A stretch of DNA of 64,000 nt, from IMG/VR virus record IMGVR_UViG_3300031371_000002, positions 2,910-66,909 of that record, one strand, 5' to 3'. This stretch comes from a virus. Below are positions 6,958-46,717 of the stretch, in pieces. The number at the start of each line of letters is the position of its first letter. The first letter of the stretch is position 1. The position numbers and the translations under genes are program-made. The notes below the pieces were generated by a model that saw only the letters and a list, made by a program, of their open reading frames with translations, was not told the origin of the DNA and made no database searches.

Positions 6958-7371
6958 TTAATCCTCCTTTTTAACAGAATAAGTTAAAGTCGCTGTCCCA
7001 CTTACTGTTTTGATGATAATCTCATTTGCTGTATTATCAGTATTATTGATTAGAAATAGTCCTGCTGGTCTGTATTCGGGAACTGTGGTTGTTGAATTGT
7101 ACCAAATCTTAGTTGGGCCATTACAATCACATTCAATCCACTCAAATGTATTACAAGTCAATGTGATTCCTGTTGTTGAATCAATTGTCTCTCTTCCTGA
7201 GCTTCCAATAAATTCTTCATATGGAGTATGACTGTCTAAATTAAGATTAGGGAAATTATAATAAGCTCTTGTTGTCTTAGTCTCTCCCGGCTTAATTATT
7301 GTCTTATTTGCACCAGTCTCATTATTAAGCATATAGGTTGTATTTGTTGAATTATTTGTGTATGTAGGCAT
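6958..7371 (-). CDS. Putative structural protein
   Basis: T/N-rich; GGAGG RBS; abuts the next gene. Confidence 0.5.
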   Translation of the reverse strand: MPTYTNNSTNTTYMLNNETGANKTIIKPGETKTTRAYYNFPNLNLDSHTPYEEFIGSSGRETIDSTTGITLTCNTFEWIECDCNGPTKIWYNSTTTVPEYRPAGLFLINNTDNTANEIIIKTVSGTATLTYSVKKED

Positions 7372-7383
7372 ACCTCCTCCTTA

Positions 7384-8022
7384 TTAGATGCACACAGGCA
7401 TTCTATTTTTAAAGCTCTCCAGTATTCGTTTGTACTGTTTCATATTTCTACCAGACCACCCTAAAAAGAACTTTCTATTATCAGCATTCTGATATGTGAT
7501 ATATGTTAGATACTCCTGAACTTCCAATAGGAATTGAAAGCAGAATTGTTTATCAGGTGTATTATTGGTAGCAGCTATTGTCATGGGTCCAATGATCTTA
7601 TCTACTTTTGTATCTGCACAAATCTGTTGATACTTAGCAGAAGTATTCTTCCCGCTCATAACACCTGTTGTGAAGATCAATAGACATTTCTCATATGAAT
7701 TAATCTTATCAAGATGCATAGGCATCCAGAAGAAAGTATAATAGAAGTCTCTAAGAGCATGTTGCAATTCTAAATCACCATTAAGAACTTTATCTAGCTC
7801 TTCTACACTAGCAGGAGCTATCTCATATGGAAGCCTAAGCTCTTCAAAATTCTCAAGATGCTTATAGACGATATTCCAACCTTCCCACTTTGGGAAATAT
7901 CTTTCAGCAACTCCTGCATAAGTCATTCCTCCACGATCTGCTTTATAATTAGCAAATCCTGCTTCATCACTTAATAGAACCTCAATAGCCATACAATAGT
8001 TAATATCTTTTTCCCACATCAT
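7384..8022 (-). CDS. Endolysin, glycoside hydrolase family 108 with peptidoglycan-binding C-terminus
   Basis: EAGFAN..DRGGMTYAGVA; VDKIIGPMTI; KFFLGW..R. Confidence 0.85.
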   Translation of the reverse strand: MMWEKDINYCMAIEVLLSDEAGFANYKADRGGMTYAGVAERYFPKWEGWNIVYKHLENFEELRLPYEIAPASVEELDKVLNGDLELQHALRDFYYTFFWMPMHLDKINSYEKCLLIFTTGVMSGKNTSAKYQQICADTKVDKIIGPMTIAATNNTPDKQFCFQFLLEVQEYLTYITYQNADNRKFFLGWSGRNMKQYKRILESFKNRMPVCI

Positions 8023-41202: not shown

Positions 41203-41892
41203 ATGAATAAACCTATTTTCTTTTTGCACATCACTAAAACAGGTGGGCAAACAATTGAGGAGCTTTTGAGGAGAAATTACTCTAAGGTTTTTCAATTTGG
41301 ACATGATGAAGATTATAAAAGTCTTCCTCAAGGACATGAGGTGTATATGGGTCAGACAGCACCCTATACGAGGGACTTGATTGAAGGGGATGTTTTCTCC
41401 TTTGCTTTTGTTCGTGATCCTGTTGAAAGGCTCGTTTCTTTTTATAACTATTATAAAGTTCATAAATTTAGACGAGTTAGATGGATTCATGCTGATGGAA
41501 CTCATGAAGAGTATCCAATTGATTCAAGTCTTCCTTTGATTGAGTTCTTTGAACAAGAGCCTATTAAGAAAGTTTGTTTCAATCGTATGGCGAGGGATTT
41601 TGGAGCTGAGGAACCCCTATTCGATTTATCCAACAGCAACTTATCCTATGATAAATACGATTACTTTATGTCTAAAATAGATTCCTATGATTTTATTGGT
41701 ATCTTTGAGGAGTTTGATGAAAGCCTTTCTAGACTTGGAAAAATCTTAGGGAAAGATTTTGAAAAGATACATGTAAACAGGGTTAAGAAAGAAAAAGAAG
41801 TTGTTACAGAGGCAGAATATGAATATCTAGAGTATTATACAGCATATGATGAAGCTATATATGAATACTGTCTGAAGAAGTTTCACAAATGA
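41203..41892 (+). CDS. Sulfotransferase (Sulfotransfer_2 family)
   Basis: 5'-PSB FLHITKTGG; 3'-PB FVRDPVERLVSFY; FIGIFE. Confidence 0.85.
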   Translation: MNKPIFFLHITKTGGQTIEELLRRNYSKVFQFGHDEDYKSLPQGHEVYMGQTAPYTRDLIEGDVFSFAFVRDPVERLVSFYNYYKVHKFRRVRWIHADGTHEEYPIDSSLPLIEFFEQEPIKKVCFNRMARDFGAEEPLFDLSNSNLSYDKYDYFMSKIDSYDFIGIFEEFDESLSRLGKILGKDFEKIHVNRVKKEKEVVTEAEYEYLEYYTAYDEAIYEYCLKKFHK

Positions 41893-42446
41893 AAGACTTG
41901 TGTGTAGTCATAGGTGGAGCACAATGTTGGGAACAGGACTTTGAGAACTTTCTTGAACTTGTTCCTGATAATGCGGCTTTTGATATTGCTGTGATAAATG
42001 ATCATATGGGAACATTTGATATGTTTCCTATTTCATGGATTTTCACATTGCATCCTGAAAAAATAGACAATTGGCTTTCAGCTAGAATTAAGCCAACATC
42101 TGCTAAAATTGTAACTATACAAAAGCCATCTAATGTAGAGTTATCTTCTGAGGTTTTTGAATATGTTCCCCATATTGGTTTATGCCAATCAGGTAGTTCA
42201 GGATTATATGCAGTTTGTAATCTATTGAATAGGTATGGATATAGAAAAGTTGTTGCTTGCGGTATTCCTATGACTTCTGAAAAGAATTATTTCAGAGATG
42301 AGAAGAAATGGCAACAATCTGATCTATATTATAAAGGTTGGAAAAAACCTGAGCTTAGGAAAATACTTCAACCAAGGTTCCGTAGTATGTCAGGATGGAC
42401 TAAAGGAAGATTTTTAGCACCTGATAGAGAATGGTTAATGAAATAA
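41889..42446 (+). CDS. DUF115/MptE/sialyltransferase-fold-like protein
   Basis: VVIGGA; IAVIND; GSSGLYAV; GYRKVVACGIPM. Confidence 0.55.
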   Translation: MKDLCVVIGGAQCWEQDFENFLELVPDNAAFDIAVINDHMGTFDMFPISWIFTLHPEKIDNWLSARIKPTSAKIVTIQKPSNVELSSEVFEYVPHIGLCQSGSSGLYAVCNLLNRYGYRKVVACGIPMTSEKNYFRDEKKWQQSDLYYKGWKKPELRKILQPRFRSMSGWTKGRFLAPDREWLMK

Positions 42447-44872: not shown

Positions 44873-45473
44873 AAATCACCCAAGAAAAAAGTTCATTACA
44901 GAACATTGGGAAGAGATGACTGATAAAGAGATGTATGAAGCAATGCTTGGAACAACTGCTGAAGCTCCTTCTGAAACTGCTGTAACAAGATATCGTCAAA
45001 GACTTGGGTTTTTAAGAGATAAAGAAATGATTTATAGAATGAGGGATAAGAAATGATTGTAGAATTTAACGGATGGCATATTGATCTATCAAAAGTATCT
45101 GCTGTAAGCCCAGTTCAAGCTAACTACTCTTTCAATATCCATGAATCAGTAGTTATTACATTGGAGTTTGCTTCACAAGAAGAAGCAGATACGGCTAGAT
45201 CACAGTTTATTACTTTATGGCAAAGACCAAATAGGATGACTCAATGATTATTCAATATCAAGACCCTTCCTTGGATATCCTAGAAGAAGGAGACATTGTT
45301 TATGATTTTTTAAATAAAAGGCAATTTACTATTTCAGGTAAAACTGCCCACTATGTTTCTCTAGAGGAAAGTAAATTTTGTAGACTTGCAACTGATAATA
45401 AATTGGTAGGATGTGTACTCATCAGAAAAGTAGATATTGATATTTAGTGAATTTTGGTGAAATTGATACAACC

Positions 45474-45507
45474 TTTAAGAAAAAATTAAGTTATAAAAGG
45501 ATATACT
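45474..45507 (+). promoter_or_regulatory. sigma70 promoter upstream of the structured RNA
   Basis: TTTAAG..TTAAG..TATACT (45502-45507). Confidence 0.6.
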
Positions 45508-45518
45508 TCTTATATAAC

Positions 45519-46115
45519 TTCTCGCACATCTGCACGCAGACCGCCGAAAGGCAACATATATGGCTGGGTGTATTAAGGATGCAAAATGCGGGACATATCG
45601 TATGAATATACAAAAAGCAACAATTCGCTACAGAATGGGTATTTCTAGAGTACTTAATGTTGTAACAAAGATTCATACCAGTACGCCTCTGGCTTGTTTA
45701 ATGTCAGAGGTCTACTTCCAATATCCTTCGGGACTACTCATATGAGGATATCGTGCCTAAGAGAATGAGCCAAAATCATTTCAGGTTTAAGCTGTTGTGC
45801 CTTTAAACAAGGTGTGGGTGGCTGGAAAGTCATAAGCCGTATCACCAAGACAGAGAGAAGAGCCTCACCTTCTCACATGAGGCGAAATTCCTTTTCATAA
45901 AATCCTATTGACGAATAGGTGCTCATTCCTCAGTATGCAGATAACGCTTAGGGAATGTTACACGGCTGGCCTCTCAATGTACGCTAGTCTTCTTTGAGTT
46001 GTGAAGTAGGATTACAGCACCTTCCTCCGGGAAACCCTTTATGGTTTAAAATGAGGCTACCCTACTTCCACTATCTATCCTCCTTGGTAGAATATAGGTG
46101 AGCTTTTATAGCTTT
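45519..46115 (+). ncRNA. Large structured non-coding RNA candidate (~600 nt)
   Basis: GC-enriched with no credible ORF; GAAA, UUCG and GGAA tetraloop hairpins; nested long-range helices. Confidence 0.75.
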
Positions 46116-46717
46116 GGTAAAGTTTGATTGATATGGTTGATTGGAGAATGTTTAGGGATAGGCATTCTCTTATGAGTTATATTTTAAAAGGAAAGATATG
46201 TTTGATAAAGATTTTGATTTTATGGACTATTTTAATAACTTCATTGATGGAGAACTTGATAAGCGTTATCAAGAAGCAAAACGTAAAAGTAACTTGACTT
46301 TATACAAAATGAAATCAGGTAGGTTTAAAATCATGGACTATTATAAGAATACTGTTTATGAATGTGATGATGTAGTTGTTGCAAAGAAGTATTTTATTAA
46401 GATTACTATTGGAGAATAGATGGAATTAGATTTCAAAAATGATTCATATTGTAAAATACTAATGTCTTTACTTATTATAGGTAAAATTGGACCAAATGAA
46501 TTTAGAGGTGATCTAGAAAAGTATGAGATATTTTTAAGAAGCTTAGGAAAATAATGAAAATAAAGATTCCACAAAATAGTGCTTATGATATATGTCTCTA
46601 TAATGAAACACTACAAGTCTATGTTGATCTATATATTGTTAAAGCAAAGATCAAGAGAAGAGAACTATTGTGGGGATTAGACCCTAAAGACATTTTAGAA
46701 TATTATATGGAGAACAA

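What the first reader, a model, noticed from the sequence alone, without database searches (positions are those of the whole stretch)
45519..46115. ~600 nt ornate ncRNA candidate with its own promoter
Seen: a GC-enriched gap with no credible ORF, starting just after a TTAAG/TATACT promoter. Local hairpins: GCC-GAAA-GGC (45543), TCC-TTCG-GGA (45724), GTGGCT-GGAA-AGTCAT (45818), CCTCTGGC/GTCAGAGG (45686/45703), GCCTCA/TGAGGC (45862/45878) and CCTATT/AATAGG (45904). Nested long-range helices: CGTG/CACG (45752/45961), CCTAAG/CTTAGG (45756/45947), GAATGAGC/GCTCATTC (45763/45921) and GTATGAAT/ATTCATAC (45600/45671). Known: ROOL and GOLLD are large phage-associated RNAs of this size class. Inference: a divergent member or a new class. 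I could not match it by eye to tmRNA, RNase P or a group I intron.
Basis: partly seen in the sequence, partly recalled or inferred. Interest (0 to 1): 0.82.

Follow-up and report, generated by a model that had tools for sequence, protein, structure and literature searches.

The report
New large structured phage RNA
An uncultivated salt-marsh phage carries a roughly 480-base non-coding gene whose folded shape is preserved by matching base changes in a related phage, so it looks like a new kind of large structured phage RNA whose job is still unknown.

Summary
Window 45448-46197 has no credible ORF and is GC-enriched. All 10 listed helices are present.

No Rfam 15 family matches. That includes ROOL, GOLLD, tmRNA, RNase P and the group I/II introns.

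One metagenome scan found a syntenic relative phage, L008. Its genes are 73-87% identical at the DNA level. L008 carries the same element, which starts at a conserved promoter-like block and ends at a hairpin plus U-tract. In L008 two tRNA genes follow it.

A hand-curated structural alignment has 75 pairs: 11 changed on both sides and still paired, 6 changed on one side and still paired, 2 broken in one sequence. None of 20000 permutations reached this. The central domain folds the same way in both phages, with z -4.5 and -5.4 on the + strand only. Fifty unpaired bases of the 3' core are invariant.

The conserved unit is about 45514-45996, not up to 46115.

Verdict: a real, structured, + strand ncRNA of a new family. 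It resembles ROOL/GOLLD in kind but is not a member. Only two full-length copies are known, expression is untested and the function is inferred.

The parts
45474..45513 (+). Conserved promoter-like block: TTTAAG (45474-79), TTAAG (45486-90) and a -10-like TATACT (45502-07). An inverted repeat, AAGTTATA (45488-95) / TATAACTT (45513-20), brackets the -10.
   Evidence: Homology with L008 begins here although the upstream genes differ. 39 of 51 positions over 45474-45524 are identical. The L008 site was flagged as promoter-like with an extended -10 TG. The window site was not flagged. The inverted repeat changes on both arms in L008, AAGCTA/TAGCTT (by eye).
45514..45996 (+). Proposed RNA, about 480 nt. 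The 5' end is inferred as about 7 nt after TATACT. The 3' end is inferred after the hairpin plus U-tract.
   Evidence: These are the limits of homology with L008 and with the X3 fragment. There is no ORF and no Rfam match.
45520..45593 (+). Domain 1: a variable hairpin, 74 nt here and 40 nt in L008.
   Evidence: In L008 the closing helix reads UCUCGUU/GACGGGA, so 2 pairs changed on both sides and stayed paired. The interior is not alignable.
45600..45678 (+). Domain 2: P2 (GTATGAAT/ATTCATAC) encloses P2a (GCAACA/TGTTGT), which encloses two hairpins, P2b (ATTC/GAAT) and P2c (GTATTT/GAGTAC). The apical sequence TTTCTAGAG is invariant.
   Evidence: Independent MFE folds give the same architecture in the window and in L008. 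Of 24 pairs, 8 changed on both sides, 1 on one side and 0 are broken.
45680..45716 (+). P3 hairpin: CCTCTGGC/GTCAGAGG with a 9-nt loop and a 6-bp extension.
   Evidence: The stem is invariant, while 2 of 9 loop bases differ. The extension has 2 one-sided changes and 2 pairs broken in one sequence. A fragment in run X4 covers 45685-45751 with 6 differences.
45717..45751 (+). Variable linker domain: 35 nt here, 129 nt in L008.
   Evidence: Not alignable with L008.
45752..45783 (+). 5' strands of the 3' core: P4 CGTG, P5 CCTAAG and P6 GAATGAGC, then the invariant 13-nt CAAAATCATTTCA.
   Evidence: 31 consecutive bases are identical in L008. The P4 partner changes give G-U pairs only.
45784..45898 (+). 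Variable insert inside the core multiloop: 115 nt here, 209 nt in L008.
   Evidence: Not alignable with L008. The loose end of the X3 fragment shows the GCCTCA/TGAGGC hairpin with 2 loop changes and a C-to-T change that keeps a G-U pair (by eye).
45899..45964 (+). 3' strands of the core: the P7 hairpin (CCTATT-GACG-AATAGG), P6 GCTCATTC, the invariant 18-nt CTCAGTATGCAGATAACG, P5 CTTAGG, the invariant GAATGTTA and P4 CACG.
   Evidence: Only 4 bases differ from L008, and all 4 keep pairing (P7 on both sides, P4 through wobble). 45897-45989 is 93 of 93 identical in a contig of run X3 from another study.
45965..45996 (+). Terminal hairpin GCTGGC/GCTAGT with a 12-nt loop, followed by CTTCTTTG. It may be a weak intrinsic terminator or a processing site.
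   Evidence: The stem is invariant, while 4 of 12 loop bases differ in L008. A U-rich tail follows in all three: the window, L008 and the X3 loose end. The terminator scans did not flag it, because they allow loops of at most 8.
45997..46136 (+). Not part of the conserved RNA. In L008 this place is taken by tRNA-Ile(UAU) and tRNA-Gln(UUG).
   Evidence: Fold z is +0.80. No tRNA was found by ARAGORN or Rfam.

Best explanation
Window 45514-45996 (+ strand) encodes a stable, highly structured non-coding RNA of a previously undescribed family. It belongs to an uncultivated tailed phage from salt-marsh or sediment samples.

**Shown**
- The region is non-coding.
- It is conserved as a discrete unit in a second phage.
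- Its helices are kept by compensatory and G-U-compatible changes that only make sense for the + strand RNA.
- It has a modular build: three expandable peripheral segments (D1, D4, D5var) hang on a core whose unpaired junction bases do not vary.

**Inferred**
- It is transcribed from its own TATACT promoter and ends at the hairpin plus U-tract.
- The invariant 3' core is the working site. It consists of stacked helices P4-P5-P6, the P7 hairpin and 50 invariant unpaired bases. It would bind a partner or another copy of the RNA.
- The variable hairpins would be scaffold.
- The most likely role is like that proposed for ROOL and GOLLD: an abundant trans-acting RNA made during infection that forms a compact, perhaps multimeric, particle linked to phage tRNA or translation. 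In L008 it sits directly upstream of two tRNA genes.
For: 1. Non-coding. No frame is open for more than 75 aa in 45448-46197. The only ORF of 40 aa or more inside the L008 copy is a 41-aa one on the opposite strand. Gaps against L008 include 3- and 4-nt and longer indels.
2. Discrete conserved unit. L008 is syntenic, with flanking genes 73-87% identical at the DNA level. Homology starts at the promoter-like block and stops after the hairpin plus U-tract, even though L008 has an extra 478-aa gene upstream and two tRNA genes downstream.
3. Structure, unbiased alignment. On the MAFFT alignment A2, 63 pairs are 98.4% paired, against 29-44% when partners are slid. Three pairs changed on both sides and 6 on one side.
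4. Structure, curated alignment. Of 75 pairs, 56 are unchanged, 11 changed on both sides and stayed paired, 6 changed on one side and stayed paired, and 2 are broken in one sequence. Permuting the substitutions gives a mean of 1.6 compensatory and 13.9 broken pairs. None of 20000 permutations reached the observed values.
5. Consensus fold. RNAalifold on the curated core gives SCI 0.94 and z -7.6 against column shuffles, 0 of 200.
6. Independent folds. Separate MFE folds of domain 2-3 give the same architecture in both phages (the z-scores are). z is -4.48 and -5.38 on the + strand, 0 of 200 shuffles each. On the - strand z is -1.08 and -2.35.
7. Strand. The P4 changes are three C-to-U changes opposite G, and several invariant G-U pairs exist.
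8. Core constraint. All 50 unpaired core bases are identical in the window and L008. 93 of 93 bases are identical in a contig of another study, whose flanks differ.
9. No known family matches.
10. The resemblance in kind to ROOL and GOLLD rests on passages read in 10.1101/2024.12.08.627333 and PMC5737381. Both are phage-borne and often near tRNA genes, and GOLLD has a conserved 3' part and a variable 5' part.
Against: - Only two full-length sequences exist, so covariation cannot be tested with R-scape-type statistics. The tool's own shuffle control on A2 has little power (69 of 500 shuffles reach the observed value).
- 8 of the 11 compensatory pairs depend on my hand re-alignment of P1, P2b and P2c. 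The covariance model built from the MAFFT alignment did not re-align them.
- The core helices P5 and P6 never vary, so they are unproven. A local alternative hairpin (AATGA...TCATT) is possible, and so are two alternative closing helices.
- The whole-region MFE z-score is only -1.52, and the 3' core alone gives -0.8.
- The promoter has no -35 at canonical spacing and was not flagged in the window.
- The terminal hairpin was not flagged as a terminator.
- The window copy has no tRNA gene nearby: 0 in 64 kb. The tRNA link rests on one genome.
- Function and multimerisation are pure inference.
Confidence: 0.7

Rival explanations
1. It is a long cis-acting leader or precursor segment of a polycistronic transcript, not a free-standing RNA. 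Depending on the genome it would be a 5' UTR or processing cassette for the downstream tRNA genes or for the small ORF at 46198. Its structure would serve processing, stability or regulation of what follows.
For: All neighbouring genes are on the same strand. In L008 two tRNA genes follow within about 75 nt. The terminal hairpin is a poor terminator and was not flagged. The promoter was not flagged in the window. The palindrome around the -10 could be an RNA hairpin of a read-through transcript.
Against: What lies downstream differs between the two phages: tRNAs in L008, and an unrelated 140-nt spacer followed by the conserved 73-aa ORF in the window. L008 has an additional 68-aa ORF between its tRNA genes and that shared ORF. 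The RNA is conserved all the same. Fifty invariant unpaired bases and about 480-650 nt are far more than known leaders need. Homology begins exactly at a promoter-like block.
Confidence: 0.15
2. It is an unrecognised catalytic or mobile RNA. Candidates are a very divergent self-splicing intron, an RNase-P-like tRNA-processing ribozyme or a self-cleaving ribozyme array.
For: The size, the invariant junctions and the variable peripheral stems are typical of ribozymes. It is adjacent to tRNA genes in L008. An HNH-like ORF lies about 650 nt upstream.
Against: No group I, group II, RNase P or small-ribozyme model matches, even at E<=10. No interrupted host gene or exon continuity is visible; the flanks are a promoter-like block and a spacer. 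The GGAAAGTC string that recalls RNase P (a recalled resemblance) lies in the variable insert and is absent from L008.
Confidence: 0.08
3. It is not an RNA gene. It would be a DNA-level element (regulatory region, origin or packaging site) or neutral spacer, and its conserved blocks would reflect recent recombination between mosaic phages.
For: Phage genomes are mosaic. The X3 fragment combines a window-like variable part with an L008-like 3' flank. A palindrome overlaps the -10 and could be an operator. There is no expression evidence.
Against: 11 compensatory and 6 wobble-compatible changes against 2 breaks, with 0 of 20000 permutations reaching this. The folding signal is strand-specific. 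G-U-only changes are meaningless for duplex DNA. Direct-repeat families in the 1-kb region are all two-copy families, of the kind the tool says are often chance matches, so no iteron-like array was seen.
Confidence: 0.07

Closest known systems
GOLLD RNA (Rfam RF02032)
   Same: [quoted passage not shown] Here the 3' core is nearly invariant and the 5' part and inserts vary. The L008 copy sits directly upstream of two tRNA genes.
   Different: The GOLLD covariance model finds nothing at E<=10 in the whole virus record; all 11 candidates were scored. It does not appear in cmscan either. This RNA is shorter, about 480-650 nt against often more than 800. No tRNA gene is near the window copy. Cage formation is untested.
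ROOL RNA (Rfam RF03087)
   Same: Similar size: ROOL averages 581 nt (PMC5737381 passages). It is carried by phages and prophages, often near tRNA genes, has an ornate multi-junction fold, and its function and protein partner are unknown.
   Different: The ROOL model finds nothing at E<=10 and nothing appears in cmscan. ROOL is described as having few highly conserved nucleotides. This RNA has 50 invariant unpaired bases, though across only two sequences. The habitat differs too: marsh and sediment rather than rumen and lactobacilli.
Candidate structured RNAs of IMG/VR (Fremin et al. 2023, PMC10690425)
   Same: The same source collection (IMG/VR) and the same kind of evidence: conserved intergenic regions with covariation.
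   Different: Those candidates are 29-151 nt long and had to match at least three IMG/VR regions (passages). This RNA is about 480 nt. Four DNA pattern scans of the IMG/VR contigs held here found no second copy. Three protein scans found no close relative of the phage: two found none and one found only a locus with 27% identity in RNR. I could not see the supplementary lists, so a short piece of it may be catalogued there.

Membership tests
ROOL (RF03087) | Match to the family covariance model (sequence plus secondary structure) | tested here: not met
   No match at gathering score in the window, at E<=10 in 45300-46300 or at E<=1 in L008 6900-8300. The direct family search of the virus record found 0 matches at E<=10. 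The tool's 14 control genomes also gave no ROOL hit, so that control is uninformative.
ROOL (RF03087) | Phage or prophage location, often near tRNA genes | tested here: inconclusive
   The phage location is met. tRNA genes adjoin the L008 copy, but there are none in the 64-kb window.
ROOL / GOLLD | Self-assembly into a multimeric RNA-only cage | not testable with these tools
   The feature is taken from passages of 10.1101/2024.12.08.627333. It needs cryo-EM or SEC-MALS of the transcript.
GOLLD (RF02032) | Match to the family covariance model | tested here: not met
   Searches found none. The direct family search found 0 matches at E<=10, with all 11 candidates scored.
GOLLD (RF02032) | Conserved 3' region with a variable 5' region; tRNA genes adjacent or inside | tested here: met
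   This is a resemblance only. The 3' core 45899-45964 differs from L008 at 4 bases, all of which keep pairing. D1, D4 and D5var are not alignable. tRNA genes lie downstream in L008.
Group I / group II introns | Match to the Rfam intron models; interruption of a host gene | tested here: not met
   No intron family matched at E<=10 or at gathering score. RF01998 (group-II-D1D4-1) gave 0 matches. The flanks are a promoter-like block and a spacer, not exon halves.
tmRNA / RNase P RNA / tRNA | Detection by ARAGORN or the Rfam models | tested here: not met
   ARAGORN found 0 genes in the window. Rfam found none.
Structured non-coding RNA gene (generic) | No conserved ORF; helices kept by compensatory change; a strand-specific folding signal | tested here: met
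   for ORFs. for covariation. for strand. The limit is two full-length sequences.
Structured non-coding RNA gene (generic) | A discrete transcript is made | not testable with these tools
   None of the 4 runs listed as holding the stretch is on record as RNA. This says nothing about expression.

The most novel reading that the evidence does not exclude
This is the founding member of a third class of large phage RNAs, functionally parallel to ROOL and GOLLD. Its invariant 3' core and its conserved palindromic apical loops would drive homo-oligomerisation into an RNA-only particle, or would form a catalytic site that acts on phage or host tRNAs during infection. The loops in question are the CTAG within TTTCTAGAG of P2c and the TTAA in the P3 loop. 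That would be an independent evolutionary invention of the 'ornate RNA next to tRNA genes' solution, in marine-sediment phages.
Probability: 0.2. Interest if true: 0.88.

Novelty: categorically new. Interest (0 to 1): 0.68.

Why it matters
Large bacterial and phage RNAs with complex conserved folds are very rare. Past examples turned out to be ribozymes or, as with ROOL, GOLLD and OLE, unprecedented RNA-only assemblies whose function is still open.

A further, unrelated class has the same genomic habits: phage-borne, next to tRNA genes in one genome, with a conserved 3' core and variable periphery. That would give an independent handle on what such RNAs do. At about 480 nt, with a compact invariant core, it is a tractable target for probing and cryo-EM.

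It also shows that such classes are still hidden in sparsely sampled sediment phages. No second copy was found by 4 DNA pattern scans of the IMG/VR contigs held here or by 2 of the genome contigs. The one blastn search of the GenBank phage collection with the region itself also found nothing.

Tried and rejected
**Known families**
- Rfam at gathering score on the whole window: 0 hits.
- Rfam at E<=10 on 45300-46300: six hits, all far below their thresholds (snoRNA, lncRNA pieces, DUF2815, Guanidine-III). I judged them chance.
- The L008 copy at E<=1: only its two tRNAs and a weak U3 hit.

**Search for more copies**
- blastn of 45450-46200 against the GenBank phage collection: no match.
- IMG/VR DNA pattern scans:
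  - An 18-mer of the core gave 5 loci. All are chance; one lies inside a coding region.
  - A 20-mer of P6/J6: 0 loci.
  - A gapped pattern of domain 2 gave 38 loci. None is related by blastn, nhmmer or model R1.
  - The P3 hairpin pattern: 0 loci.
- Genome contig scans: 0 and 0.
- Protein-guided scans of IMG/VR:
  - The 326-aa neighbour: none.
  - RNR: one locus at 27% identity, L002, without the RNA.
  - The 185-aa protein alignment A4: none.
- tblastn of the tape measure, the 185-aa protein and the 567-aa head protein against GenBank phages found only remote relatives.

**Expression**
- No RNA holder is listed among the 4 runs. This is no evidence either way.
- Parts of the region without cover in runs X2-X4 are not evidence either.

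**Model R1**
- Covariance model R1 of domain 2-3 found only the two known copies, plus weak reverse-strand echoes at E 0.013-0.6.
- It did not re-align P2b and P2c, so it gives no independent support for my hand alignment.

**Ideas considered and dropped**
- RNase P likeness of GGAAAGTC: it lies in the variable insert and is absent from L008.
- An 11-nt GAAA receptor (CCTAAG with TATGG, recalled motif): TATGG is present only in L008 at that place.
- A decayed tRNA in 45997-46136: no ARAGORN or Rfam signal, and z +0.80.
- A partner enzyme nearby: Pfam on 36 ORFs of the window and PHROGs on 10. These show RNR, ThyX, dCMP deaminase, a sulfotransferase, an HNH-like protein and a phosphoesterase. 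No RT, ligase, Cas or RNase was found.

**Tools and sources not available**
- Supplementary files of PMC10690425 were not seen. A short piece of this RNA could be listed there.
Full report
**Source and setting.** The window is bases 2910-66909 of a 66.9-kb IMG/VR virus record that is estimated 73% complete. It is a tailed phage. One arm carries a tape measure and a head protease/capsid gene. The + strand arm carries RNR large and small subunits, ThyX, dCMP deaminase, a sulfotransferase, an HNH-like protein and many small ORFs. It has no close relative among GenBank phages. The run that holds the whole stretch is a salt-marsh metagenome. Small shares occur in a second salt-marsh run, a marine-sediment run and a marsh run, each from a different study.

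**The observation.** Between the stop of a 67-aa ORF at 45447 and the ATG at 46198 no frame stays open for more than 75 aa. GC rises to 0.38-0.45 over 45500-46099, against 0.25-0.37 on either side. Energy alone does not make the case. The 611-nt stretch has z -1.52 on the + strand and +0.26 on the - strand, and 8-bp inverted repeats abound. No Rfam 15 family reaches its gathering score anywhere in the window. The sensitive scan of 45300-46300 lists only six chance-level hits. ARAGORN finds no tRNA or tmRNA.

**A second copy.**
- Laying contigs of the four runs showed that a 171-nt contig from the marine-sediment run X3 is 93 of 93 identical to 45897-45989, while its two ends differ.
- A 20-mer from that core, scanned over the metagenome contigs, found one locus, L008.
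- L008 is a syntenic relative phage. Flanking genes align at 73-87% DNA identity. Two neighbouring proteins are 68% and 88% identical.
- The region is present in L008 at about 7040-7691.
- Homology begins at a promoter-like block, 39 of 51 identical over 45474-45524, although L008 has an extra 478-aa SPFH-like gene just upstream.
- Homology ends after a hairpin and U-rich tail at 45996. Beyond that, L008 has tRNA-Ile(UAU) and tRNA-Gln(UUG). The window instead has an unrelated 140-nt spacer without excess structure, z +0.80.
- The conserved unit is therefore about 45514-45996, not 45519-46115.

**Pattern of conservation.** The alignment is a mosaic.
- Three segments differ in length and cannot be aligned: 74 nt here against 40 nt in L008 (whole D1 hairpin; its unalignable interior is 60 against 26 nt), 35 against 129, and 115 against 209.
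- Between them lie blocks of up to 47 identical bases.
- In the 3' core (45752-45783 plus 45899-45964), all 50 bases I assign as unpaired are identical in the two phages. The only four differences lie in helices and keep pairing.
- This is tighter than the most conserved neighbouring gene, which is 87% identical.
- In hairpins P3 and the terminal hairpin the stems are invariant, while 2 of 9 and 4 of 12 loop bases differ.

**Covariation.**
- On the unmodified MAFFT alignment A2, 63 pairs in nine helices are 98.4% paired, against 29-44% when partners are slid by 1-3 columns. Three pairs changed on both sides (in P2, P2a and P7) and six on one side.
- With two sequences the tool's shuffle control has little power: 69 of 500 shuffles reach the observed value.
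- MAFFT misplaces two small hairpins whose loops differ in length. Folded separately, both sequences give the same architecture for domain 2: P2 enclosing P2a, which encloses hairpins P2b and P2c.
- Aligning by that architecture adds three double changes in P2b, three in P2c and two in the helix that closes domain 1.
- Totals for the curated alignment: 75 pairs, of which 56 are unchanged, 11 changed on both sides and paired, 6 changed on one side and paired, and 2 broken in one sequence. Both breaks are in the outer extension of P3.
- Permuting the observed substitutions among paired columns gives a mean of 1.6 double changes and 13.9 broken pairs. None of 20000 permutations reached the observed values.
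- RNAalifold on the curated core recovers the same helices. SCI is 0.94 and z is -7.6 against 200 column shuffles.
- The hand alignment is a source of bias and I say so. Model R1, built from the MAFFT alignment, did not re-align those hairpins.

**Strand.**
- Domain 2-3 has z -4.48 (window) and -5.38 (L008) on the + strand, with 0 of 200 shuffles each. On the - strand z is -1.08 and -2.35.
- The three P4 changes are C-to-U opposite G. Several invariant G-U pairs occur in P1, P2a, P3 and the terminal hairpin. These would be A-C mismatches on the other strand.

**Further variants.**
- The X3 contig shows, upstream of its identical core, the GCCTCA/TGAGGC hairpin with two loop changes and a closing C-to-T that keeps a G-U pair.
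- Downstream, X3 has a U-tract followed by sequence that resembles the L008 flank rather than the window's (by eye).
- A 151-nt contig of run X4 covers 45685-45751 with 6 differences.
- So at least four sequence variants exist in samples of different studies, but only two are full length.

**Ends.**
- The -10-like TATACT is identical in both phages. The L008 site was flagged as TTTATA-16-TATACT with a TG extension. The window site lacks a -35 at usable spacing and was not flagged.
- An inverted repeat brackets the -10 and changes on both arms: AAGTTA/TAACTT becomes AAGCTA/TAGCTT. This could be an operator, or an RNA hairpin of a read-through transcript.
- The terminal hairpin has a 12-nt loop and G-U pairs and was not flagged as a terminator.
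- The ends are therefore inferred, not shown. No RNA run is listed for this DNA.

**What it is.** It is a structured + strand RNA with an invariant core and expandable periphery, as ribozymes and the large 'ornate' RNAs have.
- It is not a member of ROOL or GOLLD. Neither is among the cmscan matches at E<=10 for the region or at E<=1 for the L008 copy, and direct family searches of the virus record found none at E<=10.
- It is not a group I or II intron, RNase P RNA or tmRNA.
- It shares habits with ROOL and GOLLD as the literature describes them. Both are carried by phages and prophages, often near tRNA islands, with unknown function. GOLLD has a conserved 3' and a variable 5' region, and both form RNA-only cages. 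I read passages of 10.1101/2024.12.08.627333 and of PMC5737381.
- The large IMG/VR survey of candidate structured RNAs reports motifs of 29-151 nt that needed three or more regions (passages of PMC10690425). It would not have caught this RNA as a whole. I could not see its supplements.

**How it most likely works.**
- Shown: sequence and pairing constraints on a + strand RNA.
- Inferred: an independently transcribed, stable RNA whose stacked P4-P5-P6 helices, P7 hairpin and invariant junctions (13, 18 and 8 nt) form a binding or catalytic centre. D1, D4 and D5var would be tolerated expansions.
- The conserved apical TTTCTAGAG of P2c and the TTAA in the P3 loop are self-complementary and could mediate RNA-RNA contacts. 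This is speculation.
- The position next to tRNA genes in L008 points to a role tied to tRNA or translation during infection, but the window copy has no tRNA neighbour.
- I put 0.7 on 'real structured ncRNA of a new family' and much less on any specific function.

**Limits.**
- Four DNA pattern scans of the IMG/VR contigs, two of the genome contigs and three protein-guided scans found no further copy.
- P5 and P6 are invariant and so untested. Alternative closing helices exist: UAAC/GUUA and a longer 5'-3' helix.

Noticed in passing
window 45488-45520; L008 7036-7068: An inverted repeat brackets the -10-like TATACT and changes on both arms between the two phages (AAGTTA/TAACTT against AAGCTA/TAGCTT). 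It could be a repressor operator that co-evolves with its protein, or an RNA hairpin if transcription reads in from upstream.
   Followed up: partly
L008 7766-7856: The tRNA-Ile with anticodon UAU is 91 nt long, well above the usual length. tRNA-Gln(UUG) follows 2 nt later. The window has no tRNA gene at all in 64 kb.
   Followed up: no
window 45997-46136: This spacer replaces the tRNA pair of L008. It holds a GAAGTAGG/CCTACTTC stem and the anti-Shine-Dalgarno-like TATCCTCCT at about 46076-46084. The loose end of the run X3 contig has the same TATCCTCCT directly after the U-tract. Fold z is +0.80.
   Followed up: partly
L008 5582-7018: L008 has an extra 478-aa gene inserted between the 70-aa ORF and the RNA promoter block, absent from the window. 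It matches the SPFH/Band 7 domain (E 2e-5) and phrog_11908 (E 1e-49).
   Followed up: partly
window 41889-42446: This 185-aa protein without a Pfam family is 88% identical in L008, the best-conserved neighbour. Its only GenBank phage match is a hypothetical protein of a Paracoccus phage at 35% identity.
   Followed up: partly
window 41203-41892: A phage-encoded sulfotransferase-family protein (Sulfotransfer_2, E 2e-12) sits among the nucleotide-metabolism genes (RNR, ThyX, dCMP deaminase). It may point to a DNA or nucleotide modification.
   Followed up: no
window 45763-45783: The 5' strand of P6 (GAATGAGC) can also pair locally with the invariant TCATT seven bases downstream. That gives an alternative hairpin to the long-range P6. 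Both partners are invariant, so the two cannot be told apart.
   Followed up: no
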